Below the pieces are notes generated by a model. It made no database searches. It was not told where the DNA came from and saw nothing but the letters and a program-made list of their open reading frames with translations. A stretch of DNA of 32,000 bases from Shewanella sp. GD04112. GTDB taxonomy: Bacteria; Pseudomonadota; Gammaproteobacteria; Enterobacterales; Shewanellaceae. This document shows positions 10,121 to 23,566 of this stretch, one piece after another. Location: positions 2,470,530-2,502,529 of the forward strand of contig NZ_JAOEAL010000001.1 in the NCBI RefSeq assembly GCF_029835735.1, given 5' to 3'. Made by a program: the position numbers and the translations under genes. Positions within the stretch are counted from its first letter, which is position 1; each line of letters opens with the position of its first letter.

Positions 10121-10173
10121 ATAGTAAAAAGGATTAATAAACAAGGCCATGGATGGTTTTGATACTGTATGTT

Positions 10174-10205
10174 CCATTCGGTCACCACTTAGTGTGACCG
10201 AATGG
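10174..10205 (+). terminator. Perfect 12-bp stem hairpin downstream of fdhE (terminator-like, no T tract)
   Basis: ccattcggtcac (10174-10185), 8-nt loop, gtgaccgaatgg (10194-10205). It is followed by tcatcg rather than a U run. Confidence 0.4.
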
Positions 10206-10430
10206 TCATCGACTGTGATATCAAACTAACTGATTCAAATCTTATTCGTGCGCTACGTGAAATCTGCAAAACTTGCAGGGGCAATCTTGCCAAATATTCA
10301 CGTAGGAACGCCTTGAAAATAGCGTAGAAGTAACCCATCAAATGTATCTATCCCTTGATTAAACAAAAATCAACGGTAAGCGCTAAACGAGGACAATCTT
10401 AACCCTTTATTGGGCGGACAATTAGACGCA

Positions 10431-10457
10431 TGAAAATTCTCACCGAGAATCAGAATG
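10431..10457 (+). repeat. Left terminal inverted repeat (IR-L) of the about 16.5-kb accessory segment
   Basis: TGAAAATTCTCACCGAGAATCAGAATG compared with the reverse complement of 26882-26908, TGACAATTCTCACTGAGAATCAGAATG, is 25/27 identical. It starts with TG and is preceded by CGCA (10427-10430). Confidence 0.8.
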
Positions 10458-10537
10458 AGCCTTCAATAAAATCAGATAGTTATACCTCTATTTCAGAATG
10501 CATCAAAACGAAGATTCTCACATAAATCAGAATGAGC
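10436..10537 (+). repeat. Sub-terminal direct repeats of an about 24-bp unit (ATTCTCAC-N4/5-ATCAGAATGAGC), plus partial copies
   Basis: Copy 1 is 10436-10460 (attctcaccgagaatcagaatgagc). Copy 2 is 10514-10537 (attctcacataaatcagaatgagc). Partial copies are aaaatcagatagt (about 10468) and tttcagaatgcat (about 10491). Confidence 0.8.
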
Positions 10538-11068
10538 TATATATTTATATTAACTATCTGAAATTTCTATATTTATTTTAAAAAGTGGTGCAGGCCGTTA
10601 TAGATAAACCCACATAGGTAACGTTTTCAATGAAGTGACTGACCACAAGATTGAGTAGATGCTATTGGCAATACCTTTCCATTATGCCCCCTTCATCCGT
10701 AAAAAAAACAACTGTCTGGACACCGACATTTTTATTACAAAATTTCTCCGTTTTTTTGTTAAATCAATGCAAAAGTTTCAGTATTTTTGTCCAAATATTG
10801 TTGGTTATTATCCAAAATTCATAAATGTAAGGTTAGTATCAGATTGATATTAACTTATTGTTTTAAATGGGTTCCTGAGCAATTTCGTACCCTTTGCTAA
10901 ATTCATATCCTGTTCGTCTTAGAGCATTGGAATCTAGAATGAGTGCCCAACCAAAATATGAATGGTCCATCTATGAAAATTAGCGACTGGCTGCCCGATT
11001 GATAGAACACTTATCCATGTCTTTTTCGTTGCTCTACACCGAACAGTGGCGATTCAAAGGAGGTTATT

Positions 11069-11239
11069 ATGGCTAAATCACTGAACGAACTTAGAAAGAG
11101 GCTTAAGCCACAAGTGCAATTGGCTGCTAGAGCTAAAGCAGAAGAAATTCTCGCTGAAATGAGCATGAAAGATGTGACTAAATCGCGTGGTCATAATGAG
11201 GCTACTGTCGAATTTCTGATTCCAGAAAGAAAAAATTAG
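11069..11239 (+). pseudogene. Short XRE/HigA-like antitoxin N-terminal fragment (56 codons)
   Basis: Strong SD aaggaggttattATG. MAKSLNELRKRLKPQVQLAARAKAEEILAEM resembles the N-terminal leader of HTH antitoxins, but the ORF stops before any HTH could be encoded. Confidence 0.35.
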
Positions 11240-11399
11240 TGGCAAAAGAAATGGATAAAACTAGGTAGCGAAGTAGTGGTGATTCAACCAACTTGAAATT
11301 AATTTGCCCCTTTCTTTGTTTCGCATGACCAAGTTAGCTCAGCTTGGTATTGAACCGTTGACCTAATTTTAGTAATGCTACAAGTGCCTACTGTTCTAG

Positions 11400-11812
11400 A
11401 GGCTAACCAGAGTCCCCGATAGAGGTCAATAAAATCGATCATTTCTGGGGTTTGCAATCTAGCACCGCGACTGCGAAAAAAGCCGCTGCCTTCTTCAAAA
11501 TTTCGTTAGCTTGTTTTAGCTCTCAGTTTTTACGTTTAAGCTCTTTAAGCCTGGTGGCCGTATCAGTTGTGACTCCAGTTTTCTCTCCAGAGGGCGGTTC
11601 CATTTTGTTAACCCATACTCGAAGGCTTTCTGGGGTACAACCGATCTTTGAAGCGATAGACTTGATAGCAGACCACCGAGATGGGTGCTCACGCTCTGCT
11701 GTTAAAACCATACGAACCGCACGTTCGCTGACTTCTGGGGAATAAGTAATTCTTTTTCTCATTGGCTAATTCTCTCAAGAAAGTTAGCCTCCGACAAACT
11801 AGGATCAATTCA
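11400..11812 (-). mobile_element. IS3-family remnant (left IR, orfA, first codons of orfB); inner (left-hand) boundary uncertain
   Basis: The minus-strand terminus TGAATTGATCC ends at 11812. It is followed by orfA and an ATGA-overlapping orfB start (MIDFIDLYRG..) at 11442. Recognisable transposase sequence fades near 11400. Confidence 0.6.
11436..11762 (-). pseudogene. IS3/IS911-type orfA (HTH transposase subunit) with an in-frame TGA
   Basis: MRKRITYSPEVSERAVRMVL...LKELKRKN-TGA(11520-11522)-ELKQANEILKKAAAFFA.. continues in the same frame, giving the typical IS3 OrfA leucine-zipper tail. Confidence 0.65.
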
Positions 11813-11866
11813 TCCTCCACGCTTTTTTACTCAGTTTGTTTTCACAAGCCGTAGTGGAGTTATGAA

Positions 11867-12733
11867 TCACAAGATCCACCGTTTTAAACTATGTGGCTGA
11901 GCGACCGTGAGCTGGTTAGCTTGAGGTGAAGATTTCAGCTTTTTTGTGTCAAGGCATATGTTTAGGCGTTTTACGTAATACTTAATCAAAGCTCTTCTGC
12001 AAGATACGAAAAACTGTGCTTCAAGCATCCCATAGTCTGCTTTTACAACCAGTTGCTGTTCTTGAGTAAGAAAGGGGTTCGTTGTGATTTCGAAAGTTTC
12101 TTCGATGTTCCAATCGTCATCATCTTCTTTGGTCAAAGAAGACTTATCGAGGATTTCAGGTTCATTCCTGAATCGGCTTAGAACAAAGTCTCGAAATCCC
12201 TTCTTCTCTTCACAGTAAGCTCGTACGTGCCATCTAAAACCATCGAAAACAAGGGTGTGCGGTGCAATGTTTCTTCCTCGCTCAGAAGGGTGCTCTAACG
12301 AAACATAGTCAACATCAACACATCGCTGCTCTCTTGCTGCTTGAAGCAAACGCCTAACGATAATTGGTGCAACATGGCGGTCAGGTACACTGAGCACGAT
12401 CGAGTTTGCTTGCCCTAGCCCTTGAAGGTCAAAACCATCAATATTTTCGTTAGTGTATTTGTTTAATAGAGACAGGTACTCGTTTGGCGTTCCCTGCGTA
12501 AAACGTGGTTTAAAGTCATTAGTGGGTCTATAGCCTTTAATCCCCCGGTCATGAACAAGCGGAGGTATTTCGAAAAGCTTCTGATAGTTAGCAATGTCTC
12601 TCGATGCTTGCTGCCGCCCGATGTTGAATGAATTGCAAAGATGATTGGTTGTGAGCCTGCCTTCCCAAAGGGCAACGATTTCAATGAGTCGAAATCTAAG
12701 AAGCTGCTCCCATTTAACGTCAGCGGTAACCAT
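11867..12733 (-). CDS. WYL-domain transcriptional regulator (N-terminal HTH + WYL), divergent from the muk/jet-like operon
   Basis: N-terminus: W.QLLRFRLIEIVALWEGRLTTNHLCNSFNIGRQQASRDIANY, an HTH. WYL core: RNIAPHTLVFDGFRWHVRAYCEEKKGFRDFVLSRF. The ATG at 12733 is preferred, because the 26-codon hydrophobic extension to 12811 would cover the promoter region. Confidence 0.75.
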   Translation of the reverse strand: MVTADVKWEQLLRFRLIEIVALWEGRLTTNHLCNSFNIGRQQASRDIANYQKLFEIPPLVHDRGIKGYRPTNDFKPRFTQGTPNEYLSLLNKYTNENIDGFDLQGLGQANSIVLSVPDRHVAPIIVRRLLQAAREQRCVDVDYVSLEHPSERGRNIAPHTLVFDGFRWHVRAYCEEKKGFRDFVLSRFRNEPEILDKSSLTKEDDDDWNIEETFEITTNPFLTQEQQLVVKADYGMLEAQFFVSCRRALIKYYVKRLNICLDTKKLKSSPQANQLTVAQPHSLKRWIL

Positions 12734-12759
12734 GTAATGCCTGTTTTTGCTACATGTTA

Positions 12760-12808
12760 ATGTATACAGACTATACATCAATAAAAACCACAAGTATATT
12801 GGGTATAC
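12760..12808. promoter_or_regulatory. Two GTATAC-containing palindromes in the divergent promoter region (candidate operators)
   Basis: ATGTATAcagacTATACAT (12760-12778) and GTATAttgggTATAC (12794-12808). Both lie between the WYL gene start (12733) and the operon start (12910). Confidence 0.4.
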
Positions 12809-12909
12809 CACTTACCAAACTCAACTTACTAAATTTGCGATAGAAAAATTGGTATTCGAGAAACATGGTAAAAATAGTGATCTAAAACGAGGAGCTTGCG
12901 CAGTTTCCT

Positions 12910-14241
12910 ATGTTCCAAACAGAAAGACTATCAGCTCTTTTAAACCAGGTTCGAATGAACGAGCCTGCATTACACATTGAGCCAAACGAATACCTTTATT
13001 TGGCAGCCATGAGCTTATGGAATGTAAACGACGATGACGATTACCGACTTGTCGACCCAGGATATAAGGAGGAACAGTGCAACGAAATATTCTCCTACGT
13101 TGACAGGTGGCTGGGTCAAGACGACATCACCTCATTCCGGACAAGTAATTTTCTAAAACGAGCTGTTGAACAGGGCCTCGTAATGCAGGCCGGAAGCTCG
13201 TTAAGAAACGCTGATGGCTTCTATCGACTTACTCAGCTGAGTCACGACCTCCTCAAGCCCTTTACCGGCGACACATTGATACAGAAAGAGTCACTTTCTC
13301 AGAGATATGTACGGTTGGAGATCTTGCTTGGGAACCTACTCGTCTTGAAGATAGAGGATGACGAAGAGTGGGCTAATGAGATTAAGGCTCAGCTACCTTC
13401 ATTTAGGGACCTTCTCGATGGTATTAACAAAAACCAGGAGGCCTTAATAAAAGGGTTTCAGCTTCAACGCAGCTCGATCCAGTCAGCAGCCAGCGGCTCT
13501 CTTGCGCAACAAATGCAGCACTTGATTGAGTTAATTGACGAGATTGCAGGCCAAATAAGGGACCTAAAATCGTTGATACTGAATGGGGCGGACAATGTGC
13601 TTTCTCTACTTCATGAAATCAAAGAGATGGCACATAACAGAAATGCTCCGATCAGACTTACCAATGCTATGGCTGATATTCATGACCAGCTGGATTCTAT
13701 TCGTCAGTTCTCTGGGCACTCTCTTCTGGAGCTAGCAGAGTTCTTTGAGCAAGTTTTATCCACTATCCGCCTAAAAATCACCCTAGATCCAAACGCGAAT
13801 CTCAATTTATTGATTGAAAAAGCAGTCCTGCAAATGGATCGGATGCCTTGGTCAATCTCTATTCTTGCGCCAGATCCTGTTGTGGAGCTCAGGGATTGGG
13901 AGGCTCCGCCTCCACCTTTGGAAAACGAACTGCCAAATGATGGCGACCCTGAAGTCATCCTTAGAAAGACCCCTAGCGACTACCTAGAAAAATTAGCTAA
14001 GGGACTCGTTGCGAGAATGTATGAGAGCGATAACGAGGTCGATATTTCAAAAGTTGCCGACCAGATCCTTTCCAATGAAGAGTTTCAATATAAAGACCGC
14101 CATCGGTTGCTGTTTTTCATCTTCGATGAGTTGATAAAAAACGGAGATTGGACACGCCCTGCCTATCACCCTGAGTGGGTACAATTAGCACACGATAATA
14201 ACGTTGAAATTGAACAACAGTGGTTCAAAAAATATGACTGA
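12910..14241 (+). CDS. jetA: MukF-like kleisin (JetA/MksF-class) subunit
   Basis: 443 aa; E. coli MukF is about 440 aa. The N-terminal winged-helix region ..FLKRAVEQGLVMQAGSSLRNADGFYRLTQLS.. resembles MukF ..[30 protein letters not shown]... There is an acidic/proline linker (WEAPPPPLENELPNDGDPE). The C-terminus EWVQLAHDNNVEIEQQWFKKYD resembles MukF [20 protein letters not shown]. The E. coli strings are from memory. Confidence 0.7.
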   Translation: MFQTERLSALLNQVRMNEPALHIEPNEYLYLAAMSLWNVNDDDDYRLVDPGYKEEQCNEIFSYVDRWLGQDDITSFRTSNFLKRAVEQGLVMQAGSSLRNADGFYRLTQLSHDLLKPFTGDTLIQKESLSQRYVRLEILLGNLLVLKIEDDEEWANEIKAQLPSFRDLLDGINKNQEALIKGFQLQRSSIQSAASGSLAQQMQHLIELIDEIAGQIRDLKSLILNGADNVLSLLHEIKEMAHNRNAPIRLTNAMADIHDQLDSIRQFSGHSLLELAEFFEQVLSTIRLKITLDPNANLNLLIEKAVLQMDRMPWSISILAPDPVVELRDWEAPPPPLENELPNDGDPEVILRKTPSDYLEKLAKGLVARMYESDNEVDISKVADQILSNEEFQYKDRHRLLFFIFDELIKNGDWTRPAYHPEWVQLAHDNNVEIEQQWFKKYD

Positions 14242-15016
14242 TCATCTATTTACACACGCTCAAGACTCAAAGAAACAGTACCTTACACTAGATGATGTAA
14301 TTGATGACCCCCTATTCGCGGATGTAGATTATCGCCTTAGGGGCGGGGTAAACATTACTAGTGAAGATGACCGGTTACATACCTTTCTAGGAGAGACGGA
14401 GAGTGTGCTTCGCAAGTTTTACGGCAAGTTACACCTGGCTCTAGAAGTCACGCCTGAGAAAGTTTATTACCTAAGGCCACAGCGTCGTTCAAATGTTCCT
14501 ACGACCCGATTGAACCAATTAGAAATGGTTATGGGTCTAACGATAGTTGCAATGCAATGGGAAAAAAATGCGACTGATTTCGAATGGATCCCCGTTGATT
14601 TTCTTATTGAACGATTGAAGTCTCAGCTGTCGGACGAACGGTTCGCTGAGTTGTATCGCCGTAAGCCGGGCATTCAGACAGACCATGATGTAGGGCGTGT
14701 GAGAGAGGAAACGTTGAAGAGACTCTCTAGACTGTCACGTCTGAGTTTTATTAGGCTCAACAGAGATGAGCAGACTTTCTGGGCAACTAATGCGATCTAC
14801 AGGTTTATCGAACCTTTGAAAGGCTTGAGCAGCGAAGACGAGTTGCCAGGCCGCATAAGTTCGTTAATCCAAGAGGGTTTTCTTACCGACTCACCTTCGC
14901 CCAGAGAAGAGTTAAGAGACACGCCAAGAACAGAGTCTGAACATTGGTCATCAGAAGGCCTAACTATCGAAGGTGATACTCGCGATATGTTTGATGCGGA
15001 GGAATATGATGCGTAA
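14234..15016 (+). CDS. jetB: MukE-like KITE (JetB/MksE-class) subunit
   Basis: DPLFADVDYRLRGG...FYGKLHLALEVTPEKVYYLRPQRRSNVPTTRLNQLEMVMG parallels E. coli MukE NPLFPALDSALRSG...[40 protein letters not shown] (from memory). It has an acidic C-terminal tail. ATG 14234 overlaps the upstream stop (ATGACTGA). Confidence 0.75.
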   Translation: MTDHLFTHAQDSKKQYLTLDDVIDDPLFADVDYRLRGGVNITSEDDRLHTFLGETESVLRKFYGKLHLALEVTPEKVYYLRPQRRSNVPTTRLNQLEMVMGLTIVAMQWEKNATDFEWIPVDFLIERLKSQLSDERFAELYRRKPGIQTDHDVGRVREETLKRLSRLSRLSFIRLNRDEQTFWATNAIYRFIEPLKGLSSEDELPGRISSLIQEGFLTDSPSPREELRDTPRTESEHWSSEGLTIEGDTRDMFDAEEYDA

Positions 15017-18000
15017 TTACCCATACATAAAGAGCCTGTCGCTTGTGGGCGTCAACGGAGTCTCTGCCAGAACCCTCGATTTAGTTAATCCTCATGAACA
15101 TCAGACTGATAGGCAATATGGCACCGTGGTTAGCCTTTTAGGCAAAAATGGTTCAGGGAAAACGACGCTACTTGGGACCTTTATGTTGGCTCTCTTACCC
15201 GATATTCGCTCGGTCAGTTTGGGAACATCGGATAATTTTACTCAGACGCAGAAGATGCAGGACGCAGAAATGTTTGAGCGCTTGGGTAATCCGTCTCTTA
15301 TTGGGTTAGAGGTTGTATCTCGTGCTGGTGAAAGAGCGCTGTTTATTGTTCGCTCTGAGCGAGAGACGGGGTCCCGCTTGAAGTTTGACACGTTCAGGGT
15401 TGGGTTGTTCGATAGTTTAGCACCACTTGATTTTCTTATCGTTCGTAACGGCAACATGGTTACGCCCAGAACTATAGATGGTATTCGAGATATAGCTGCC
15501 GAGCATGGCTGCCGACTACAAAGCTTCGACAAGATTGATAAATACATGCTGGCGTTGTTTAACGATGGTATTTTGCCCAGAACATTCAACCGTTCTAATG
15601 AGCGTTACCAATTAGGTCAGATTTTTCACAGCGCCATGTCAGGAAAAAGAGATCAAGCTATCGGCCGAGATCTAGCTGATTTCCTAATGACGCACTCAAG
15701 GACAAATATCAAAAGTGTGGTCGATGTGTTGTCTGGAACAATGCGAAAGCTTAGGCAGACAAGAGATGATCTGGCGCACAACTCCAAAGACTATGCGTTT
15801 TTCAAGGAGTTGTTAGAGAAGTCCTTCACTGTATCAGCTAAAGCATGGGCTCAAGCCGAGTACAATTTTTCTCGAGCAGATAAAGAAGCTACATCCTGTC
15901 GACAAGATGTTTCAGAGTGCAAAGTTTCTATTGAGAAGAGTGATCAGGATCTTACGGAGTGTCGTTCGAAACTAGATACAAGCGTTGAGAATAGAACATC
16001 ACTCGAGCAGGAAAGTGAACAGCTAAAGCCAAGACTTGCTTCTGCTGTTGAGGGCGAAATCTTCTACAAGCAGGGTAAACAAGCCTCTGTGAGTCTATTA
16101 AAGAAGGAAGCTCAACTTTACGAGAGTTTGAGTTTGTCCCAGTTGGCTGACGAAGGCGCTGACGCGTCGCGCAACAAAGTTGAACAAGCTAATCAAGATA
16201 TCTTGGATATCCAAGCACAGCTCGCAGATGTGCAAGAACGTTTTATCCTTCTTGAGAAAAAGGCGGGGCAATACCGAAATGCGAAGTCGTTATTAGATAG
16301 CGTCAAGAGCTGGTGTGGCGATAGCTTTGAACTAGCGAAGCTTAAGGGCATGATTGAAGAATACACTGCACAATCCAAACAGCTAGCGCTAGAGGCGGAC
16401 CAGCTGGGAAACAAGCTCAATAGTGCAGAGAATATCAATGAAATTCATGCTAAAGCTGCATCACTGATTCGACGCGCTGGCGATAGCATTGACCCAAACG
16501 TCGCAAAGAATTGGTTTATCTCTACAGAGCTTAGACTCGAAGAGGAACGCCCGCTAGCCGTTAGCCTTGAACAGATGAGAAATGGATTGAGTGCGTTGAA
16601 AAGGAATCATCGTACTGTGAACCGCATGCTTGATCGCTTTAAGCAAGCAAAGTTACCACGCATGCCTTCCAATGAATCTGAGTACCAACAGCTTACGGAA
16701 GACAGAGGAGAAGCTCTTGAGTCGGCGAAGGAGGTGAAAGCGAGTGTCGATGCTAGGTATGAGGACGAGCGACATATCCAGGAAGAGCTAAAGATCGAGG
16801 TTTCACGTCTCAAATCGCTGCGAACAGAGTGGCAAAATTATCAACCTGCGGTTGCACGTTTATATGAATGCTTCCCTGATACTCAATTCACGGCAGAGAT
16901 GTTAGATGGGTTGATTAAAAACACGCAGAGAGAACTCAGGTCATTACGAGAGAATAACTCCCGAATAGAGAGCAATATATTTTCTTTGAAAGAGAGGATC
17001 CTTTCACTCAGCAACAGGGAAACTGGGTCATTGGAAACCCTCCAACGTTTTGCCAGCGATGTTGGCGGAGTGGCCGTAGCGGACTTGTATAGCGATATAC
17101 CGTTAGAAGAAGCTGGATTCACCGAAGCGGCTTTAGGTCAGCTTATGTGCGCTATCGTAGTGAATGACCCGAGCGATGCGGCTAGAACGCTATTAGCTGA
17201 ATATGGTGATAACTGGCCATTACCTGACGTGATCTTAATGACTGTAAAAAACCACAGTCCTGATCAACTACGGAGTGGTGGCTATGACGCGGACCTGTTT
17301 TTTAAAGATCTTAGTCAAGAGTTTGTAGGTGCTGATCTAGACCTTAATCACAACGAAAATGATGTTCCTTGGGTAGTTCTCAGTGAACCCTTTGGCGGTA
17401 TACGTGTTAGCGGGGTGCCTACTGAACCAGTTTTGGGTAAAGAGGCTCGGGATAAGCTGATAGCAGATCTACAAATTGAGTTAAATTCAAAGCAAACTTT
17501 GTTTGACAGTAACGATGAGAATATATCGCTGCTGCAAAGTGGCCTAGAGCAAGCCAATCGAATCAACGTTAATCCCTCATTGGCTTTCGCTGTTGAGCCT
17601 AATGTTGAGCTCAAAAAACAGAAATTACAACAACAAGGTAATAAGGTAGCTGACCTGTACTCTCAAACGTTGCAAGCGACCAATCGCGTAAAAACCTTAG
17701 AACTACAATGCAGTTTGCTTGAACAGCATGCGGATTCAAGTGATTTGCTAGACGTTAACTTCGACAAGGAGATTATGGAAGCAGAGGAACAAATCATACG
17801 TTCTGAAAAGGCTAAAAAGTATGTCGATAGGTACGGCGGTACCTTCTCGCAGATAAAGCAGCAATACCCGAAGATTCGAGAAGATTATCAATCTGACATA
17901 GACACGCTAAAGCGACAACATCAACTCGCTGAACAAGATCTTAGCAATACCAACAACCGCAAGCGCGATTTAACCTCGCTTAACCAAGTGGCGAATCATC

Positions 18001-19562
18001 TCGCTGACGATTACGAGCAAGCACAAAACGATCTTGCGAAAGAAGATGGAAACGTAAGTTCATTGCGTGAGAGGCACAAACAGAAACGTGTCATGCTCGA
18101 TGAGTTGAAGGTTCAGTTGAGAGAAAGCGAAGATAAAGCACGCAAAAACAAAGAGGTACATCTTAAGCTTCAATCGGAATATTCTGTGTTAGAAGAGCAG
18201 GTTGCGGAATCAAAACGTAGTTTGTCAAAGCTGACTTACCCTTATTGCGAAGGACTCGAAAAACAACTTTCACTCGATAGCGAAACGATATCTAAACGAT
18301 TGAGAGCGGCTCAAGAGCAATGTGAATCACTCCAACTTAAGCAAGTATCATTAACCGAACGCCATAACACCCTACTCAAGCAAGTAGAATCCCTACAGAG
18401 TACATCAGTGATTGCAGAAGAGGCGCGTGAAAATGCAAATGGTATAAAGCAAAAGGTGCTGGATGCTCTGCCTGCCGGAGCCACAAAACATAAGCTAGAG
18501 CAAGAAATGGACGTCTATTTTAAACTGATGCATGAAGGTGAGGCCGTCCAATACACTAATGGGATTTACGCAATATCTGGATTGGTCAATCGCTATGGTT
18601 TGAGTCGAGATGATGAGTTCTCCCAAAAAATAAATAGTTTTAATCTAGAGGGAGGGACCACCCTGCCTAGTCTTTGCCAGCTGCATAGTGACGCTATTTC
18701 TTTGTTTCGTCGGCAAGCCCGAGGGGACATTATTCGTAGTTCCGAGCCGACAGAGATGCTTACACAATTGGATAGTGCGTGTAGTCTCGCTAGGAGAACA
18801 CTTGAAAGCGCCGAAGAGCAGTTTCTCACAGATAGAAATGAACTAGGAAATGCCATTGCCCGTCGTGTACAGGATGAGCAGAAAGCCATAAGAAGGCTAA
18901 GTGCTGAAATGATAGGAATAAGCTTTGGGCAAGTTGCGGCTATTCGTCTAGTACCTAAAAGCGTCCCTCATTTCGAAGCTACTTTGAAGGCTTTGAGAGG
19001 AAGCGACGATGTCATGGACGATCTCTTCAATAATGCTGAAGATGTAGAAGAAGCGCTCGCAACACTATATCAAAAAACCACTGGTGGCCGGATCGAGGGA
19101 GAAAAGCTGCTTGACCATAAGAACTACATCAATGTGGTAACAGAAATCCAGAGAGTTGGTAGTGAAGAATTTGAGTTATTGGATGACAAAACACTTTCAA
19201 CAGGAGAGCGAATTGGCTCTGGATTGGTTGTCTTAATAGCAATTCTAAAAAACTGGGGACGGGTCTCACATGAAAAACAACCTTTCTTAATCCCGTTAGT
19301 AATGGATGAAGCATCACGTTTGGACTCCGACGCTCAGAGAACGGTGCACCAGTTGGCGGTAAAGACCGGAAGTCAGATTGTAATTGCCGCACCTGAGTCG
19401 CAAGGAAAGATATCAGGTGTTGGCTATCAACTTGTCAGAAGTGCTTCTAAAGCAGGTAACAAAGAGAGCCGTGTAATCATTAGTGGGATCCGGGATGCTG
19501 ACAGTTTAGGGATTGATGAAGAAGCATTTATCGATTCGGTTGTGAGTGGGGCGGCGCATTGA
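15006..19562 (+). CDS. jetC: MukB-like SMC ATPase (JetC/MksB-class), 1518 aa
   Basis: - SD GGAGGA precedes ATGATG at 15006.
- N-terminal head: IKSLSLVGVNGVSARTLDL, Walker A GKNGSGKTT (15141-15167), ALLPD.
- Very long coiled coils.
- Hinge-like VADLYSDIPLEEAGFTEAALGQLMCAIVVNDPS.
- C-terminal head: SFGQVAAIRL...LSTGERIGSG...LVMDEASRLD (D-E at 19305-19310)...QIVIAAPE...GYQLVR.
- Each motif matches MukB motifs as I recall them. Confidence 0.85.
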   Translation: MMRNYPYIKSLSLVGVNGVSARTLDLVNPHEHQTDRQYGTVVSLLGKNGSGKTTLLGTFMLALLPDIRSVSLGTSDNFTQTQKMQDAEMFERLGNPSLIGLEVVSRAGERALFIVRSERETGSRLKFDTFRVGLFDSLAPLDFLIVRNGNMVTPRTIDGIRDIAAEHGCRLQSFDKIDKYMLALFNDGILPRTFNRSNERYQLGQIFHSAMSGKRDQAIGRDLADFLMTHSRTNIKSVVDVLSGTMRKLRQTRDDLAHNSKDYAFFKELLEKSFTVSAKAWAQAEYNFSRADKEATSCRQDVSECKVSIEKSDQDLTECRSKLDTSVENRTSLEQESEQLKPRLASAVEGEIFYKQGKQASVSLLKKEAQLYESLSLSQLADEGADASRNKVEQANQDILDIQAQLADVQERFILLEKKAGQYRNAKSLLDSVKSWCGDSFELAKLKGMIEEYTAQSKQLALEADQLGNKLNSAENINEIHAKAASLIRRAGDSIDPNVAKNWFISTELRLEEERPLAVSLEQMRNGLSALKRNHRTVNRMLDRFKQAKLPRMPSNESEYQQLTEDRGEALESAKEVKASVDARYEDERHIQEELKIEVSRLKSLRTEWQNYQPAVARLYECFPDTQFTAEMLDGLIKNTQRELRSLRENNSRIESNIFSLKERILSLSNRETGSLETLQRFASDVGGVAVADLYSDIPLEEAGFTEAALGQLMCAIVVNDPSDAARTLLAEYGDNWPLPDVILMTVKNHSPDQLRSGGYDADLFFKDLSQEFVGADLDLNHNENDVPWVVLSEPFGGIRVSGVPTEPVLGKEARDKLIADLQIELNSKQTLFDSNDENISLLQSGLEQANRINVNPSLAFAVEPNVELKKQKLQQQGNKVADLYSQTLQATNRVKTLELQCSLLEQHADSSDLLDVNFDKEIMEAEEQIIRSEKAKKYVDRYGGTFSQIKQQYPKIREDYQSDIDTLKRQHQLAEQDLSNTNNRKRDLTSLNQVANHLADDYEQAQNDLAKEDGNVSSLRERHKQKRVMLDELKVQLRESEDKARKNKEVHLKLQSEYSVLEEQVAESKRSLSKLTYPYCEGLEKQLSLDSETISKRLRAAQEQCESLQLKQVSLTERHNTLLKQVESLQSTSVIAEEARENANGIKQKVLDALPAGATKHKLEQEMDVYFKLMHEGEAVQYTNGIYAISGLVNRYGLSRDDEFSQKINSFNLEGGTTLPSLCQLHSDAISLFRRQARGDIIRSSEPTEMLTQLDSACSLARRTLESAEEQFLTDRNELGNAIARRVQDEQKAIRRLSAEMIGISFGQVAAIRLVPKSVPHFEATLKALRGSDDVMDDLFNNAEDVEEALATLYQKTTGGRIEGEKLLDHKNYINVVTEIQRVGSEEFELLDDKTLSTGERIGSGLVVLIAILKNWGRVSHEKQPFLIPLVMDEASRLDSDAQRTVHQLAVKTGSQIVIAAPESQGKISGVGYQLVRSASKAGNKESRVIISGIRDADSLGIDEEAFIDSVVSGAAH

Positions 19563-20509
19563 TGCATGGACTACTGGAGGATGTAAAGTTAACACCTAAG
19601 CAGGCACTGGCACTTATTGATAAGCTTATTGAGCGCGGGAAAGTGTTGCCCAACCAGAGAGATAGTTTACTGATTGAGCGCCTTGAGCAACTTGGCATAG
19701 TGAAACGAGTGGGGAGTTACTGGCAGCTGTGTGAGCCCCAACGCATTGAGAGTGTTCGTAACCAAATAACGCAATATACTTTGCAAAAAAACAGGCCTGG
19801 TATCTTACGAAAGATGCCCGTTGTACATCATAAAAGTGCTGCTGCCTGGCGAGGACATAGCAAAAGTGGGCAAGGCGAGGCTCTTCAGAAAGGTCAACTG
19901 ATAAGTACAGACGATGTAGTACGGGTCCGCACTCAGAAGACCGGGTTCGTAATATACAGCGATAACGCCACGATTGATACTGACTTGGAGACTCTGCAAA
20001 GGACTGAAGTCAGCTTACCAGAACGGTTGTACAAAGACGCTCATGCGCCCTGTGTCGCTGGGGTAAAGTTGGTGTTGACTGTCGAAAACTTGGGCACATT
20101 TGTTGACTTCCCCATGGTGGATGGACTCGTATTGGTTTACTCATCAGGGAATAACTTTGCATCATCGGTTTGTTTTATCAAGCGCTTCTTGGAAGAGGTG
20201 ACCTGGGCACACTTCCCGGACCTTGATCCCAATGGTCTGATCATATCAACGCAAATGGCAGATACCCTCAACAAACCTTGCAATGTTTGGATTCCACCTC
20301 ATTGGGATAGGGTCCGAGCTCAGCCGCTGGTTTCTGGTAAAGGAAAAAAGGTATGGGGGGAAGCCCCTGCCTGCCCTGAAATCGCAAGTTTGCAGGAAAC
20401 AAGCCATTGGGTTGAGCAAGAGGTTCTCGTCTTAGATCAACGAAGCGTCAAAGCCGTCAGTGAGCTTGTTAGTGAGCCTAAGCTCCGGCTAATAACTCTT
20501 CAATACTAA
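19562..20509 (+). CDS. jetD: JetD/MksG-type Toprim (topoisomerase-VI-like) nuclease subunit, 315 aa
   Basis: The start overlaps the jetC stop (TGATG). Toprim signature: VLTVENLGTFVDF (Glu codon 20084-20086), WAHFPDLDPNGLII (DxD 20228-20236), then HWVEQEVL. The N-terminus looks winged-helix-like (LIDKLIERGKVL..LEQLGIVKRVGSYWQL). Confidence 0.7.
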   Translation: MHGLLEDVKLTPKQALALIDKLIERGKVLPNQRDSLLIERLEQLGIVKRVGSYWQLCEPQRIESVRNQITQYTLQKNRPGILRKMPVVHHKSAAAWRGHSKSGQGEALQKGQLISTDDVVRVRTQKTGFVIYSDNATIDTDLETLQRTEVSLPERLYKDAHAPCVAGVKLVLTVENLGTFVDFPMVDGLVLVYSSGNNFASSVCFIKRFLEEVTWAHFPDLDPNGLIISTQMADTLNKPCNVWIPPHWDRVRAQPLVSGKGKKVWGEAPACPEIASLQETSHWVEQEVLVLDQRSVKAVSELVSEPKLRLITLQY

Positions 20510-20699: not shown

Positions 20700-22010
20700 A
20701 TGAGTATTGAGAAGTTTAGAAGCGTGGAGGAACTAAAACAGTTCTTCGAAGAAGGAGGTAACCCTTGGTTTGATGCAGAATTTTCTCCTCAGACTCAGAG
20801 TATCGTCGAAGCATTGGATGCAAAAGGAGCCTTTCTCAATAAGTGGTGGGTAAGGACCGCCATGGATTGGAAGTGTCCCGCCTGTAAAAGGACTAAGCCC
20901 CAAATAGCCAAACTAGATAATCGTAGATATGCCTCCTGCAAACTGGAGGAGCATCACGATCACATGAAGGATACGGTGCGCACGTTGTTCGAAGAAATAT
21001 CTTCGAACAGAGAAGTCGTTGTTGCAACTGAGCTAGCTAAGCGGTTTGCAATCAGGACGTCCTTTGCAATTTCCGCTTACGATAACACGGTGATTTGCGC
21101 GGATTGTAATAAAGCAGACGGTATTGCAAAACGGATGGTCAAAACTCACAGTGACTTTTCATACTCTCCAGCAGAAATTGGGCGATTTGTAAAACCATCA
21201 GATAATCGAGAGCATGAAATTGACGCGGATATCGCCAAGGAAATTTGGAACGAGAATCTGGAAACGTTCAATAAGCGTATGCAGTTGGCAAAAGTTATAG
21301 CGGAGTTGGCTGCCAGCGATTCACATTGGTATCAACCCTCAGAACCAACAGCCAAGCAAGTCAATGATTCTGCCAATTACAAGTTTAACTTGCGTGGATT
21401 AAGAGACCTTCACGATGATCCTGAAAAGCTTCTATACAATACAACGCCTTTCAAGGGAAACCACTCATCATGGAGATTGAATCCCAAGCCTTTCACAAGT
21501 ACGAGACCAACTGATGGACAAATAGCACATTTATCTAACACCAGGGGGCGGTACTGGAACAGGTACGACGACAGCTGGCAATGCCCATGTTGTGGTCGTT
21601 TAAAGCGGGAATGTCTTAAGCCGTCTAAAAATAACCCTTGGGTGTTTGAAGTAAAGGCCATTCTAGCTCATGATTCTGAGCATCAGTCTTTTGCTGAAGA
21701 AATTAAGGTGTGCAACGAATGTTTCAATGCTGCAAACCATCTTGGCCAGGAAGCAATAAAAGAAGCCAAAGAACAAGATGAGACGGTAGATGTATATTTT
21801 CCACATAGCTTGATACAACTGGAAGAGTTGAAGTCTGTTATAACGCCGAGATTACACTCCTCACATATCATTGATAATGACTTGGCTGAAAACGTGGTTC
21901 GCAATGCCATCAGGCGCATTATTGATGAAGACTATAACCAATCCCCAAAGCACAAGATGAAGCTGCAAGAACAGTTCAGTACAATGCTTTATGGTGGAAG
22001 TTGTGAATAG
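20700..22010 (+). CDS. Protein with two endonuclease-VII/HNH-like zinc modules (436 aa), otherwise unassigned
   Basis: SD aaggatacttaATG. Module 1: WKCPACKRTK...KLEEHHDHMKD...(about 47 aa)...VICADCNKADGIAKR. Module 2: WQCPCCGRLKREC...ILAHDSEHQSFAEEIKVCNECFNAANHLGQ. The layout CxxC...H.DH...CxxCN..(D/E)G is that of the T4 endonuclease VII branch of the HNH fold. Confidence 0.55.
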   Translation: MSIEKFRSVEELKQFFEEGGNPWFDAEFSPQTQSIVEALDAKGAFLNKWWVRTAMDWKCPACKRTKPQIAKLDNRRYASCKLEEHHDHMKDTVRTLFEEISSNREVVVATELAKRFAIRTSFAISAYDNTVICADCNKADGIAKRMVKTHSDFSYSPAEIGRFVKPSDNREHEIDADIAKEIWNENLETFNKRMQLAKVIAELAASDSHWYQPSEPTAKQVNDSANYKFNLRGLRDLHDDPEKLLYNTTPFKGNHSSWRLNPKPFTSTRPTDGQIAHLSNTRGRYWNRYDDSWQCPCCGRLKRECLKPSKNNPWVFEVKAILAHDSEHQSFAEEIKVCNECFNAANHLGQEAIKEAKEQDETVDVYFPHSLIQLEELKSVITPRLHSSHIIDNDLAENVVRNAIRRIIDEDYNQSPKHKMKLQEQFSTMLYGGSCE

Positions 22011-22164
22011 TTCAGCCTTCGCTAGACACGAATGCAGCGACTCCACTGTCTAATTTGATCAAATATTGTGAAGGTCCACTAGAACCGACTTTAAAAAAAA
22101 TCAGTGATTTATATGGGGATTACTAAAATTGGCCTTCTTTTGAGAATTACATGAGGGGAATGAA

Positions 22165-22530
<366 letters not shown>

Positions 22531-22857
22531 CTATGCCACTACACTCATATATTAGAACGTGAGAGCGTGGAGCGGATCGCTGCTCATCCTGGAAATCCGA
22601 TTGGCAATATTGTCGAACTCTGGGAAGAACAGGAAATCGGTGTGACTAAAGAAGCAAAGTTATTGAAGGTAATTGACCGCTTATTGCCATTCTTACATAA
22701 CATGACTAGCGAAGGCCAAGCTTGGAGGGATAATGGAATACATAAAGCCCAAGTGTTGAATATGCACCAATTTATCGAGAAGGAAAGTCCTGAAATTTTT
22801 TCATGGTTTGTTATACAGCTCGAATATGCCGTTGAACAAGGTTGGCTTAAAGCATGA
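22531..22857 (+). pseudogene. 3' fragment of an HD-domain (HD_3-type metal-dependent phosphohydrolase) gene
   Basis: ..IVELWEEQEIGVTKEAKLLKVIDRLLPFLHNMTSEGQAWRDNGIHKAQVLNMHQFIEKESPEIFSWFVIQLEYAVEQGWL matches the C-terminal half pattern of HD_3 proteins. The catalytic HD part is missing, and the frame is open right up to the IS3 terminus at 22530. Confidence 0.55.
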
Positions 22858-23065
22858 TCTTTCATTGGTTGTTTCTTGTCTATCCAGACTAGGCCCGTAA
22901 CTTGTCGATGCCCCATTCAAAGTTATCAACACGACTTGAGATGAGCATCACTAGCCTAATGTTGACCCAAACTAAGTAATGCGACAAAGTCCCCCTGTGT
23001 CAGGATTGTTGTCACCCCTAAATAATCATTATGTTTAAAGACAGGGTGCGGCAAAAGAGAACGAT

Positions 23066-23566
23066 ATGGCTCGGTATTCACCAGAACGTAAAGAAGCGAT
23101 CCTTAAAAAATTATTACCTCCTCACAACTTAACGGTCGCAGAGGTCGCTCGGGAAGAAGGCATCGCGGTGCAAACCTTGTATCATTGGCGAGATATTGCC
23201 AGAAAAGAAGGTCGCCCCGTGCCAGGTAAAACATTAACAGCCGATGATTGGTCGGCTGAAGCAAAACTTGCCGTGATTATTGAAACAGCGCCGCTGTCGG
23301 AAGCGGAGATAAACCAGTATTGCCGTGAAAAGGGCTTGTTCCGCGAGCAAGTACAGCAGTGGAAACAGGATTGTTTAGCTGGTTTTCAAACCTCAGAAGT
23401 ACAAACTAAAACCATTAAACAGCAGGCTAAGGCTGACAAAGCCGAAATCAAATCGCTGCAACGGGAATTGCGCTATAAGGAGAAAGCGCTGGCTGAAGCT
23501 GCTGCGTTACTGGTGCTCAGAAAAAAGCTCAATGCGCTCTGGGGGGACGACAGCGAGGAGAGCTAA
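23066..23566 (+). CDS. IS3-family transposase OrfA (HTH + leucine zipper)
   Basis: MARYSPERKEAILKKLL..LTVAEVAREEGIAVQTLYHWR is an HTH, followed by a coiled-coil tail KAEIKSLQRELRYKEKALAEAAALLVLRKKL. Confidence 0.8.
   Translation: MARYSPERKEAILKKLLPPHNLTVAEVAREEGIAVQTLYHWRDIARKEGRPVPGKTLTADDWSAEAKLAVIIETAPLSEAEINQYCREKGLFREQVQQWKQDCLAGFQTSEVQTKTIKQQAKADKAEIKSLQRELRYKEKALAEAAALLVLRKKLNALWGDDSEES
23521..23527 (+). promoter_or_regulatory. Programmed -1 ribosomal frameshift heptamer A AAA AAG
   Basis: The heptamer is in the X XXY YYZ register of orfA (codons AGA AAA AAG). The -1 frame is open from here into orfB (..AQCALGGRQRGELTPLPERIALI..). Confidence 0.7.

What the first reader, a model, noticed from the sequence alone, without database searches (positions are those of the whole stretch)
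11867..12909. WYL-domain regulator divergently paired with the Muk/Jet-like operon, with two GTATAC palindromes in the 176-bp control region
Seen:
- A 288-aa HTH + WYL protein (..RNIAPHTLVFDGFRWHVRAYC..) is transcribed away from the operon.
- The shared intergenic region holds ATGTATAcagacTATACAT (12760-12778) and GTATAttgggTATAC (12794-12808).

Established: WYL regulators such as BrxR, CapW and PafBC-like proteins gate defence or DNA-damage operons, often de-repressing on a nucleic-acid or damage signal.

Inference: the SMC-nuclease operon may be kept repressed and induced on a signal. That would make sense for a potentially self-toxic condensin-nuclease. I am not aware of WYL control being an established feature of Wadjet loci.
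Basis: partly seen in the sequence, partly recalled or inferred. Interest (0 to 1): 0.55.

Follow-up and report, generated by a model that had tools for sequence, protein, structure and literature searches.

The report
BrxR-type repressor beside a Wadjet-like operon
A Shewanella defence island carries a BrxR/CapW-family WYL regulator with two matching operator palindromes next to a MukBEF-like DNA-cutting condensin operon; this is a clear new example of a known type of defence-gene switch, not a new kind of system.

Summary
The gene at 11867-12733 (-) encodes a 288-aa wHTH-WYL-WCX protein. It is about 40% identical to Acinetobacter BrxR (E 6e-59) and also matches CapW. GTATA-N5-TATAC occurs twice in 32 kb, both times in the 176-bp intergenic region (0.03 expected).

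The proximal site is a 10-5-10 inverted repeat (12757-12781). It has the geometry and the GTA core register of the crystallised BrxR operator, and the RQQ DNA-contact residues are kept.

The consensus ATGTATA-N5-TATACAT lies upstream of 11 of 12 related WYL genes, about 165-fold enriched, whatever the divergent cargo. The cargoes are this MukFEB-JetD family, type III Wadjet, a DUF3584/DUF7281 SMC operon, DndFGH and PADLOC candidate systems.

The operon family keeps a BrxR-type neighbour in the Shewanella/Pseudoalteromonas and Vibrio clades. The Enterobacteriaceae clade has none.

Most likely the protein is an autoregulated repressor that occludes divergent promoters and is released by ssDNA. 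That step is inferred from CapW/BrxR.

BrxR co-localisation with Wadjet is already published, but no experiment on it turned up in the searched papers. The cargo is unusual: a Wadjet-like operon closest to MukBEF that PADLOC does not recognise.

Verdict: new member of a known kind, moderate interest.

The parts
11867..12733 (-). BrxR/CapW-family transcriptional regulator gene (288 aa; wHTH-WYL-WCX)
   Evidence: Pfam WYL 1.5e-13. The identical protein P0011 carries precomputed WHD_BrxR, WYL and BrxR_CTD domains. PDB sequence matches: BrxR 7T8K 6.4e-59, CapW 7TB6 4.8e-38, BrxR 7QFZ 3e-20.
12608..12619 (-). G39-R40-Q41-Q42, the counterpart of the S37-R38-Q39-Q40 base-contacting motif in the BrxR recognition helix
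   Evidence: Alignment to 7T8K. Motif positions. GRQQ is present in 103 of the 120 nearest homologues. The role of SRQQ comes from PMC9122589.
12167..12358 (-). WYL domain (residues 126-189), including RWHVR at 12221-12235
   Evidence: Pfam stretch 126-189. RWHVR and the Arg of LSRFR are kept. The Ser equivalent to E. coli CapW S158 is Ala157 here.
12757..12781 (.). Operator O1: TTAATGTATA-cagac-TATACATCAA (10-5-10 inverted repeat, 9 of 10 symmetric); core 12760-12778
   Evidence: (pair I3). It is conserved upstream of WYL genes of the clade in 11 of 12 loci. Same geometry and GTA register as the BrxR_Acin operator ATACCGTAAA-AATAA-TTTACTGTAT.
12789..12813 (.). Operator O2: core GTATA-ttggg-TATAC (12794-12808). 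The outer arm positions are poorly symmetric (6 of 10). Its centre is 32 bp from the centre of O1.
   Evidence: (pair I1). A second site is also present in L001, L032, L029, L030, L036 and L037, there at 17-bp centre spacing.
12772..12800 (+). Sigma-70-like promoter candidate facing the operon: TATACA-17 nt-TATATT. The -35 lies in the O1 arm and the -10 in the O2 arm.
   Evidence: It is the only + strand match in the region. The same layout occurs on the cargo strand in L001, L032, L014, L033 and L034. This is a consensus match only; the start site is not mapped.
12770..12798 (-). Weak mirror-image promoter candidate for the WYL gene: TATACT (12798-12793), 17 nt, TATAGT (12775-12770). It scores 8 of 12, below the scan threshold.
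   Evidence: Read from the sequence. Inference only.
12910..14241 (+). Kleisin, MukF-like (443 aa)
   Evidence: Pfam KicB and MukF_M hits are weak and below cut-off. NCBIfam MukF scores 71 bits against a cut-off of 407. In the PDB it matches only MukF, at 6e-06. It is conserved in 24 related loci.
14204..15016 (+). KITE subunit, MksE/MukE-like (270 aa as an ORF; the true start may be further downstream)
   Evidence: Pfam MksE 4.5e-23 and MukE 3.1e-18. Homologue alignments begin at about residues 18-26.
14973..19562 (+). SMC subunit, MukB-like (1529 aa)
   Evidence: NCBIfam MukB equivalog scores 1527 bits against a cut-off of 699. Pfam MukB_N and MukB_hinge match. In the PDB it matches only MukB, 8.4e-53, and no JetC.
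19559..20509 (+). Short JetD-like Toprim nuclease (316 aa)
   Evidence: Pfam JetD_C 2e-06, 27.7 bits against a cut-off of 22. PADLOC JetD1 8e-07. The Toprim Glu (TVENLG) and DxD (FPDLDPNG) are invariant in the family and align with a JetD3.

Best explanation
**What it is.** The gene encodes a homodimeric wHTH-WYL-WCX repressor of the BrxR/CapW family.

**How it most likely works.**
- Its winged-helix domains bind two 5-bp-spaced inverted repeats, O1 (12757-12781) and O2 (core 12794-12808).
- These sit in the 176-bp region between its own gene and a four-gene Wadjet-like operon (MukF-like, MukE-like, MukB-like SMC, JetD-like Toprim nuclease).
- The operators overlap the best promoter candidates on both strands. 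A bound repressor would therefore hold down its own expression and that of the SMC-nuclease operon.
- By analogy with CapW and BrxR, single-stranded DNA binds the WYL pocket, spreads the wHTH domains and releases the repressor, raising operon expression. Such ssDNA is produced when damaged or restricted foreign DNA is resected.
- The regulator, its operator and probably an outward-facing promoter form a portable cassette. The same cassette is found in front of several different defence cargoes.

**Shown here:** family membership, operator statistics, operator conservation and synteny.

**Inferred:** DNA binding, repression of the operon, and the ssDNA signal.
For: **Family.**
- Full-length matches to BrxR 7T8K (6.4e-59; about 40% identity overall, 52% in the wHTH), CapW 7TB6 (4.8e-38) and BrxR 7QFZ.
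- WHD_BrxR, WYL and BrxR_CTD domains on the identical protein.

**DNA reading head.**
- R40, Q41 and Q42 correspond to R38, Q39 and Q40 of BrxR_Acin. The counterparts of H59, K64 and Y66 are also kept.

**Operators.**
- GTATA-N5-TATAC occurs twice, only in the intergenic region, against 0.03 expected.
- O1 is 10-5-10 with 9 of 10 symmetry, the same description as the BrxR_Acin site. The GTA triplet is at the same distance from the dyad.
- ATGTATA-N5-TATACAT with up to 3 mismatches gives 17 hits in 2.8 kb of WYL-upstream regions, in 11 of 12 loci. Elsewhere it gives 7 hits in 190 kb. It is also present in V. cholerae L037.
- The site stays 25-45 bp from the WYL start whatever the cargo is.

**Cargo control.**
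- The only operon-strand sigma-70 match has its -35 in O1 and its -10 in O2. The same layout recurs in 5 other loci carrying other cargoes.
- In L029 and L030 the whole divergent intergenic region is only 98-113 bp and is filled by two operators.

**Synteny.**
- An orthologous WYL gene accompanies the operon in L001, L032 and L015.
- The Vibrio clade of the operon carries a different BrxR-type WYL gene (7QFZ, 4.7e-24) with GTATC-N5-GATAC-type palindromes.

**Mechanism in homologues.** CapW and BrxR are repressors released by ssDNA (PMC11662680, PMC13622015).
Against: - No binding or expression data exist for this locus.
- One of the four conserved ssDNA-contact residues differs. The Ser equivalent to E. 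coli CapW S158 is Ala here, and it is Val or Ala in 101 of the 120 nearest homologues. The ligand could therefore differ.
- O2 is only weakly symmetric outside its GTATA core.
- O2 ends 100 bp before the operon ATG, which leaves room for an independent promoter.
- The promoter matches are at chance frequency for the region (2 found, 2.1 expected). They are also favoured by the TATA-rich operator sequence itself.
- The operon family functions without any WYL neighbour in Enterobacteriaceae.
- In Acinetobacter, the phenotypes of a brxR deletion and of a brxR stop mutant differed. Regulation by this family is therefore not always simple repression (PMC9122589).
Confidence: 0.68

Rival explanations
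1. The WYL protein only autoregulates. O1 and O2 control the WYL gene's own promoter, and the Wadjet-like operon is transcribed constitutively from a separate promoter in 12810-12909.
For: - There are 100 bp between O2 and the operon ATG.
- A weak extended -10-like TGgTAAAAA lies at 12866-12874 (read).
- PMC11662680 argues that Wadjet should be constitutively expressed.
- The operon family exists without a WYL gene in 18 enterobacterial loci.
Against: - No sigma-70 match passes the scan threshold in 12810-12909.
- The divergent pairing with defence cargo is kept in 12 of 13 sampled loci of the clade, and L029 and L030 have only 98-113 bp between the genes.
- Characterised BrxR and CapW proteins do control their neighbouring operons.
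Confidence: 0.15
2. The WYL protein is an activator, in the manner of DriD or PafBC. Bound upstream of an operon promoter at about 12850-12880, it would switch the operon on when ssDNA appears.
For: - WYL activators that sense ssDNA exist (DriD and PafBC papers listed).
- If the promoter lay near 12870, O2 would be centred about 60-75 bp upstream of the start site, a typical activator position (inference).
Against: - The protein has the wHTH-WYL-WCX (BrxR_CTD) build of the repressor family. It matches PafBC only weakly (3e-04, WYL domain only).
- O1 lies 27 bp from the WYL start codon, where binding would block transcription rather than help it.
- All characterised BrxR and CapW proteins repress.
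Confidence: 0.08
3. The adjacency and the palindromes are incidental. The island is a mosaic, and the repeats are leftovers of a mobile-element end or a recombination site.
For: - The island is flanked by a transposase fragment (11523-11762) and an IS3-type element (23066-24621).
- The conserved block ends about 60-75 bp upstream of the WYL start, like a module junction.
Against: - The motif is about 165-fold enriched upstream of related WYL genes.
- It matches the geometry of the BrxR operator.
- The WYL-operon pairing recurs in Pseudoalteromonas and in two metagenome contigs.
- The region does not fold better than shuffled sequence as a single strand (z -0.54).
Confidence: 0.03

Closest known systems
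Acinetobacter sp. NEB394 BrxR (PDB 7T8K/7T8L; Luyten et al. 2022, PMC9122589)
   Same: - wHTH-WYL-WCX build, and the best PDB match (6.4e-59; about 40% identity).
- RQQ base-contact residues are kept.
- The operator is a 10-bp, 9-of-10 symmetric inverted repeat with a 5-bp spacer and a GTA core in the same register. It overlaps promoter elements just upstream of the regulator gene.
   Different: - BrxR is the first gene of, and co-directional with, a type I BREX operon. Here the regulator is divergent from an SMC-nuclease operon.
- The half-site sequence differs (TTAATGTATA against ATACCGTAAA).
- K46 and R47 are not conserved, and the pocket Ser is Ala.
- There are two operators here.
CapW (CBASS-associated; Blankenchip et al. 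2022 and 2024; PDB 7TB5, 7TB6, 9C5G)
   Same: - Same protein family (4.8e-38).
- Transcribed divergently from the defence operon, with a palindromic site in a bidirectional promoter region.
- RWHVR motif conserved.
- ssDNA-triggered derepression is the working model.
   Different: - The cargo is CBASS (abortive infection), not an SMC nuclease.
- S158, needed for the ssDNA response in E. coli CapW, is Ala here.
V. cholerae WYL repressors of BREX (BrxR) and of the anti-plasmid system DdmDE (Oshiro et al. preprint, PMC13622015)
   Same: - A WYL repressor gates a defence system, including an anti-plasmid one, in a marine gammaproteobacterium.
- The cue is restricted infection, sensed through ssDNA.
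   Different: - The cargoes differ (BREX, DdmDE).
- Those regulators were tested experimentally; this one was not.
Wadjet / JetABCD / MksBEFG plasmid-restriction systems, types I-III
   Same: - Four-gene build: kleisin, KITE, SMC and Toprim nuclease.
- Subunit sizes resemble type III (JetC3 about 1450-1480 aa, JetD3 about 345 aa).
- The Toprim Glu and DxD motifs are kept.
- BrxR homologues are reported to co-localise with Wadjet (PMC9122601).
- The same WYL clade is paired with a PADLOC-recognised type III Wadjet in V. hyugaensis (L036).
   Different: - PADLOC JetA, JetB and JetC models do not match (best JetC3 hit 0.0026).
- The SMC subunit matches MukB rather than JetC, both in NCBIfam and in the PDB.
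MukBEF chromosomal condensin
   Same: - The SMC subunit passes the NCBIfam MukB equivalog cut-off and has MukB_N and MukB_hinge domains.
- The kleisin and KITE subunits match MukF and MukE best.
   Different: - MukF and MukE scores are far below the equivalog cut-offs.
- The operon carries a JetD-like nuclease, which MukBEF lacks (PMC7617805).
- It sits in a defence island with a dedicated repressor.

Membership tests
BrxR/CapW wHTH-WYL-WCX defence-associated repressors | Three-domain build (winged HTH, WYL, WCX/BrxR_CTD) of about 290 aa | tested here: met
   The identical protein P0011 carries PF26109 WHD_BrxR, PF13280 WYL and PF26107 BrxR_CTD. It aligns over its full length to 7T8K and 7TB6. 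The local Pfam copy reports only the WYL domain.
BrxR/CapW wHTH-WYL-WCX defence-associated repressors | Recognition-helix residues that contact bases (SRQQ in BrxR_Acin) | tested here: met
   G39-R40-Q41-Q42. The R, Q, Q residues are identical and Ser is replaced by Gly. K46 and R47 of BrxR_Acin are not conserved.
BrxR/CapW wHTH-WYL-WCX defence-associated repressors | Inverted-repeat operator with 10-11-bp half-sites and a 5-bp spacer at the regulator's promoter | tested here: met
   O1 at 12757-12781 is 10-5-10 with 9 of 10 symmetry. The motif is significant and conserved in 11 of 12 related loci. Reference operators are described.
BrxR/CapW wHTH-WYL-WCX defence-associated repressors | Encoded next to a defence system | tested here: met
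   The neighbour is a Wadjet-like operon. Clade relatives sit next to type III Wadjet, DndFGH, PDC-M40 and a DUF3584/DUF7281 operon.
BrxR/CapW wHTH-WYL-WCX defence-associated repressors | Conserved ssDNA-binding pocket (E. coli CapW S158, R180, R184, R200; RWHVR motif) | tested here: inconclusive
   RWHVR and the distal Arg are kept, but the Ser position is Ala157. It is Val or Ala in 101 of the 120 nearest homologues.
BrxR/CapW wHTH-WYL-WCX defence-associated repressors | Sequence-specific DNA binding and repression of the neighbouring operon | not testable with these tools
   This needs EMSA or footprinting and reporter or transcript assays.
Wadjet (JetABCD/MksBEFG) | Operon of kleisin, KITE, SMC ATPase and Toprim nuclease | tested here: met
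   MksE 4.5e-23; MukB_N and MukB_hinge; JetD_C 27.7 bits against a cut-off of 22; the kleisin matches only weakly. The gene order is conserved in 24 loci.
Wadjet (JetABCD/MksBEFG) | Match to type I, II or III subunit profiles (PADLOC) | tested here: not met
   There are no JetA or JetB hits. JetC3 reaches only 0.0026, and JetD1 gives a partial hit at 8e-07. A true type III operon (L036) scores JetC3 1e-109 and JetD3 5e-61.
Wadjet (JetABCD/MksBEFG) | Toprim catalytic Glu and DxD in the nuclease subunit | tested here: met
   TVENLG and FPDLDPNG are invariant in 9 family members and align with TFEDIG and FGDLDPEG of JetD3.
Wadjet (JetABCD/MksBEFG) | Restriction of circular plasmids by loop extrusion and cleavage | not testable with these tools
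   This needs transformation or conjugation assays and in vitro cleavage.
MukBEF chromosomal condensin | All three subunits reach the equivalog score | tested here: not met
   MukB scores 1527 bits against a cut-off of 699. MukF scores 71 against 407, and MukE 63 against 250.
MukBEF chromosomal condensin | No associated MksG/JetD nuclease | tested here: not met
   A JetD-like Toprim gene overlaps the end of the SMC gene (19559-20509). The published statement that MukBEF lacks MksG/JetD is in PMC7617805.

The most novel reading that the evidence does not exclude
A sub-clade of BrxR-type WYL repressors, together with its ATGTATA-N5-TATACAT operators and an outward-facing promoter, is a portable switch that has been recruited again and again to SMC-nuclease (Wadjet-like) operons. 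The three distinct operon families are the MukBEF-proximal family seen here, type III Wadjet, and a DUF3584/MksE/DUF7281 family. This would make these plasmid-restriction machines inducible rather than constitutive. ssDNA released when a cleaved plasmid is degraded would feed back to raise nuclease levels.
Probability: 0.35. Interest if true: 0.55.

Novelty: new member of a known kind. Interest (0 to 1): 0.36.

Why it matters
**The open question.** Wadjet-type systems are usually discussed as constitutive sentinels. Why many of them sit next to WYL repressors is an open point raised in the literature (PMC11662680).

**What this locus offers.**
- It is a clean, testable case: one regulator, two defined operators with a derived consensus, and a compact divergent promoter region.
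- Natural comparison sets are available: the same cassette on four other cargo types, an operon clade with a different BrxR branch, a clade with no regulator, and one locus with a truncated regulator.

**If repression and ssDNA-triggered induction are confirmed,** inducible control would extend to SMC-nuclease defence, and plasmid cleavage might reinforce its own defence.

**The cargo itself.** It is a MukBEF-proximal operon with a nuclease. That bears on how the chromosomal condensin MukBEF relates to Wadjet. It is also a practical annotation trap, because its SMC subunit passes the MukB equivalog threshold.

Tried and rejected
- **GTATAC as the repeated unit.** Rejected. The hexamer is not enriched (3 found, 3.8 expected). 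The 5-bp-spaced inverted repeat is the real signal.
- **Hairpin or RNA element in the intergenic region.** The single-strand fold is not better than shuffles (z -0.54). There is no Rfam family in the window and no tRNA or tmRNA.
- **The longer 314-aa GTG ORF (to 12811).** Rejected, because it would read through the conserved operator block, and homologues start at the ATG form.
- **Canonical Wadjet typing.** PADLOC JetA, JetB and JetC models do not match.
- **The conserved 332-aa protein upstream of the enterobacterial operons as a hidden WYL or HTH regulator.** No Pfam, NCBIfam, PADLOC or PDB match. hhalign against the WYL profile gives a probability of 0.05%.
- **The 436-aa ORF at 20700-22010 as a fifth subunit.** It has no family hits and is absent from all related loci.
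- **Alignment of the operon-proximal half of the intergenic region across the four nearest loci.** Nothing is conserved beyond the operators and a Shine-Dalgarno-like AGGAG. The operon promoter could therefore not be footprinted phylogenetically.
- **Other operator copies in the window that would suggest a wider regulon.** Only one 3-mismatch hit, inside the WYL gene.
- **The pattern GTATA-N5-TATAC in the first 10 operon loci.** No exact match. The relaxed consensus was needed.
Full report
**1. The observation**

The sequence is as described. On the minus strand an ORF runs from the ATG at 12733 to the stop at 11867. It encodes 288 aa and contains RNIAPHTLVFDGFRWHVRAYC.

The mechanical ORF list also gives a longer 314-aa form starting at a GTG at 12811. 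That form would read through a non-coding block conserved in relatives. Homologues align from residues 1-5 of the ATG form, so the ATG is taken as the start.

The intergenic region 12734-12909 is 176 bp. ATGTATAcagacTATACAT lies at 12760-12778 and GTATAttgggTATAC at 12794-12808. The pattern GTATA-N5-TATAC occurs exactly twice in the 32-kb window, both times here. Dinucleotide-preserving shuffles give 0.03 expected, and none of 100 shuffles reaches two.

The proximal site extends to 10-nt arms, 9 of 10 complementary, separated by 5 nt (12757-12781). The meaningful unit is the 5-bp-spaced inverted repeat. As single-stranded DNA the region folds no better than shuffled sequence (z -0.54). This fits a protein-binding duplex site rather than a hairpin.

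**2. The regulator**

Pfam finds a WYL domain (1.5e-13). The identical database protein, from Shewanella, carries three precomputed domains: WHD_BrxR, WYL and BrxR_CTD.

Against solved structures the matches are:
- Acinetobacter BrxR 7T8K, 6.4e-59 over residues 3-261. Identity is about 40% overall and 52% in the first 75 residues.
- CapW proteins, 4.8e-38 to 3.8e-36.
- E. fergusonii BrxR 7QFZ, 3e-20.
- PafBC, only weakly and only in the WYL domain.

Luyten et al. (PMC9122589) showed that BrxR_Acin reads its operator through S37-R38-Q39-Q40, with R38 contacting a G and a T in each half-site. Here the motif is G39-R40-Q41-Q42. GRQQ is present in 103 of the 120 nearest homologues. The counterparts of H59, K64 and Y66 are kept; K46 and R47 are not.

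In the WYL domain the RWHVR motif and the distal Arg are kept. These are the positions equivalent to E. coli CapW R180, R184 and R200. The Ser equivalent to CapW S158 is Ala157, and that position is Val or Ala in 101 of the 120 nearest homologues. The ligand pocket is therefore only partly conserved.

**3. The operators**

The crystallised BrxR_Acin target is ATACCGTAAA-AATAA-TTTACTGTAT: 10-bp half-sites, 9 of 10 symmetric, 5-bp spacer. E. fergusonii BrxR binds 11-bp repeats, also with a 5-bp spacer. O1 here is TTAATGTATA-CAGAC-TATACATCAA. It has the same geometry, and the GTA triplet sits at the same distance from the dyad.

I fetched loci for nine close WYL homologues (54-72% identity) and added the loci found through the operon. 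The last 60 bp or so before the WYL start is a conserved block. It reads yATGTAtA-nnCTG-TATACAT-n4-ATGTAnCAttTTCAGGCA and then the start codon.

Scanning with ATGTATA-N5-TATACAT and up to 3 mismatches gave:
- 17 hits in 2.8 kb of WYL-upstream intergenic DNA, in 11 of 12 loci.
- 7 hits in 190 kb elsewhere, which is about 165-fold enrichment.
- Two further sites in a V. cholerae locus fetched later.

Six of the twelve loci, and the V. cholerae locus as well, have two sites. These are usually 17 bp apart centre to centre; in the window they are 32 bp apart. A 47%-identical Aeromonas homologue lacks both the motif and a divergent cargo.

**4. Promoters (weak evidence)**

The only sigma-70-type match on the operon strand in the intergenic region is TATACA-17-TATATT at 12772-12800. 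Its -35 is the right arm of O1 and its -10 is the left arm of O2.

My re-implementation of the same rule finds the same layout on the cargo strand in L001, L032, L014, L033 and L034, which carry three different cargo types. In that layout the -35 lies in an operator arm and a -10-like hexamer lies 17-18 nt further toward the cargo.

A mirror-image candidate for the WYL gene scores 8 of 12 and is below the scan threshold: TATACT at 12798-12793, 17 nt, TATAGT at 12775-12770.

Such matches occur at chance frequency in this AT-rich region (2 found, 2.1 expected) and are favoured by the operator sequence itself. I treat them as a hypothesis about occlusion, not as evidence. More telling is that the whole divergent intergenic region in L029 and L030 is only 98-113 bp and is occupied by two operators.

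**5. The cargo**

| Gene (window) | Product | Best evidence |
|---|---|---|
| 12910-14241 | MukF-like kleisin | Pfam hits below cut-off; NCBIfam MukF 71 bits against 407; only MukF in the PDB |
| 14204-15016 | MksE/MukE-like | Pfam 4.5e-23 |
| 14973-19562 | 1529-aa SMC | NCBIfam MukB equivalog 1527 bits against 699; MukB_N and MukB_hinge; only MukB in the PDB (8.4e-53), no JetC |
| 19559-20509 | 316-aa JetD_C protein | 27.7 bits against a cut-off of 22 |

PADLOC's JetA, JetB and JetC models do not match. The JetD-like family keeps an invariant Toprim Glu (TVENLG) and DxD (FPDLDPNG), which align with those of a bona fide JetD3.

The operon is therefore a Wadjet-like SMC nuclease that sits closer to MukBEF than to the typed Wadjet systems. 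Burmann et al. state that MukBEF lacks MksG/JetD (PMC7617805).

The window is a Shewanella chromosome segment. The island lies between a formate dehydrogenase operon and an IS3 element, followed by Mrr and HNH genes and a filamentous prophage.

**6. Synteny**

Scans of species-representative genomes and of metagenomes with a profile of the kleisin returned 24 loci with the same gene order: kleisin, KITE, SMC, JetD. One more came from a look-up. They fall into three groups.

| Group | Loci | Kleisin identity | Upstream neighbour |
|---|---|---|---|
| a | window, Pseudoalteromonas L001, metagenome L032 and L015 | 48-53% | Orthologous WYL gene, divergent, in all four (55-63% identity) |
| b | Vibrio L008-L010 | 37-40% | A different BrxR-family protein, divergent, in all three |
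| c | Enterobacteriaceae, 19 loci, 18 with upstream sequence | about 40% | No WYL gene; a conserved co-directional 332-aa protein |

- In group a, the L015 copy is truncated after about 95 residues by an inserted gene pair, and its operator is degenerate.
- In group b, the regulator is about 22% identical to the window protein. Its closest structure is E. fergusonii BrxR (4.7e-24). Its intergenic regions hold GTATC-N5-GATAC-type palindromes.
- In group c, the 332-aa protein has no recognisable family and no similarity to WYL proteins.

The regulator is still dispensable for the operon family as a whole.

**7. The cassette is portable**

Sampling driven by the WYL protein (nine look-ups) found that the same clade, with the same operator, faces these cargoes:
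- DndFGH (L011, L012; PADLOC DndF and DndH).
- The candidate system PDC-M40 (L014).
- A pair of large proteins of unknown function (L030).
- A PADLOC-recognised type III Wadjet (L036, V. hyugaensis: JetC3 1e-109, JetD3 5e-61).
- A DUF3584/MksE-like/unknown/DUF7281 operon, four times (L029, L033, L034 from V. vulnificus CMCP6, and L037 from V. cholerae inside a Tn7-like element).

The DUF7281 proteins carry Toprim-like IVENYEAF and FDTDPxG motifs.

So five of the nine sampled relatives face an SMC-type operon. With the window's family, that makes three distinct Wadjet-like operon families. The sample is small and not random.

**8. Mechanism**

Shown here:
- Family membership.
- Conserved DNA-reading residues.
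- Operators that are statistically and comparatively supported and have the family's geometry.
- Recurrent divergent pairing with defence cargo.

Inferred from characterised homologues:
- The dimer binds O1 and O2 and represses both promoters.
- ssDNA binding in the WYL pocket spreads the wHTH domains and releases the protein. This is the model for CapW (PMC11662680) and for V. cholerae BrxR and the DdmDE-linked WYL protein (PMC13622015).

For an SMC nuclease that linearises plasmids, degradation of the cleaved DNA would be a natural source of ssDNA. That would give a priming or feedback loop. This last step is my speculation.

**9. Comparison with what is known, and verdict**

BrxR-family regulators were already reported to co-localise with Wadjet, among many other systems (PMC9122601). 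The association is discussed as puzzling in PMC11662680. Twelve papers in the searchable library mention both WYL and Wadjet. I read only the two above, and none of the other titles or abstracts points to an experimental test.

The finding is therefore a well-supported new member of a known kind of regulatory module. Its value lies in three things:
- A defined operator consensus.
- The repeated pairing of the cassette with SMC nucleases.
- An unusual cargo, close to MukBEF, that current defence-finder models miss.

Noticed in passing
window 12910-20509; related loci L001-L010, L015-L028, L032: The cargo operon is a MukBEF-proximal Wadjet-like family. Its SMC subunit passes the NCBIfam MukB equivalog cut-off (1527 bits against 699) and matches only MukB among solved structures. 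The operon nevertheless ends in a JetD-like Toprim gene, and PADLOC's Jet models miss it. It is likely to be mis-annotated as a chromosome partition protein. It was found in Shewanella, Pseudoalteromonas, Vibrio and several Enterobacteriaceae.
   Followed up: partly
L002-L007 and L016-L028, e.g. L003 8830-9828 (+): In the enterobacterial clade of the operon, the position of the WYL gene is taken by a conserved co-directional 332-aa protein. It has no Pfam, NCBIfam, PADLOC or PDB match and no profile similarity to WYL proteins. It is frameshifted in L004, L017 and L027. Its role (fifth subunit, or another kind of regulator) is unknown.
   Followed up: partly
L008 9716-10000; L009 9602-10000; L010 2880-3245: Vibrio-clade copies of the operon carry a different branch of the BrxR family (closest to E. 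fergusonii BrxR). Their intergenic regions hold their own 5-bp-spaced palindromes, for example ATGTATC-aaaac-GATACGT and TATATC-atttt-GATATA.
   Followed up: partly
L034 2308-8794 (V. vulnificus CMCP6), L037 2332-8781 (V. cholerae, inside a Tn7-like element next to a CBASS gene), L033, L029: This is a four-gene operon: DUF3584 SMC-like (about 1220 aa), MksE-like (212 aa), an unknown protein of about 430 aa, and DUF7281 (about 290 aa). It is divergently paired with the same WYL clade and operator. The DUF7281 proteins have Toprim-like VEN and DTDP motifs. It looks like another Wadjet-like system in C-B-A-D gene order that PADLOC v2 does not recognise.
   Followed up: partly
L015 1040-1369 (-) and 174-981 (-): In one metagenome copy of the nearest operon clade, the WYL gene is cut off after about 95 homologous residues, so only the wHTH remains. 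Two inserted ORFs follow it, and the operator is degenerate. This is a natural case of regulator decay.
   Followed up: partly
window 12890-12912: The Shine-Dalgarno-like GAGGAG lies about 14-15 nt before the ATG at 12910, which is unusually far. No in-frame alternative start lies between them. The starts of the MukE-like (TTG 14204) and MukB-like (GTG 14973) ORFs are also uncertain, since homologue alignments begin 3-26 residues in.
   Followed up: no
window 20700-22010 (+): A 436-aa ORF directly after the operon has no Pfam, NCBIfam or PADLOC match and no counterpart in any related locus.
   Followed up: partly
window 10121-11866 and 22011-32000: Island context:
- A stretch of about 1.3 kb (10121-11450) has no ORF of 90 aa or more.
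- A transposase HTH fragment lies at 11523-11762 (-).
- An IS3-type element lies at 23066-24621.
- An Mrr-type restriction enzyme lies at 25272-26018 and an HNH protein at 26227-26748.
- Filamentous-phage genes follow (Zot at 27400-28740, DUF2523 at 28728-29078).
   Followed up: no
L003 17764-19566 (+), also L016, L018, L023: Some enterobacterial copies of the operon are followed by a 600-aa protein that matches the PADLOC candidate defence system PDC-S71 (6.7e-131).
   Followed up: no
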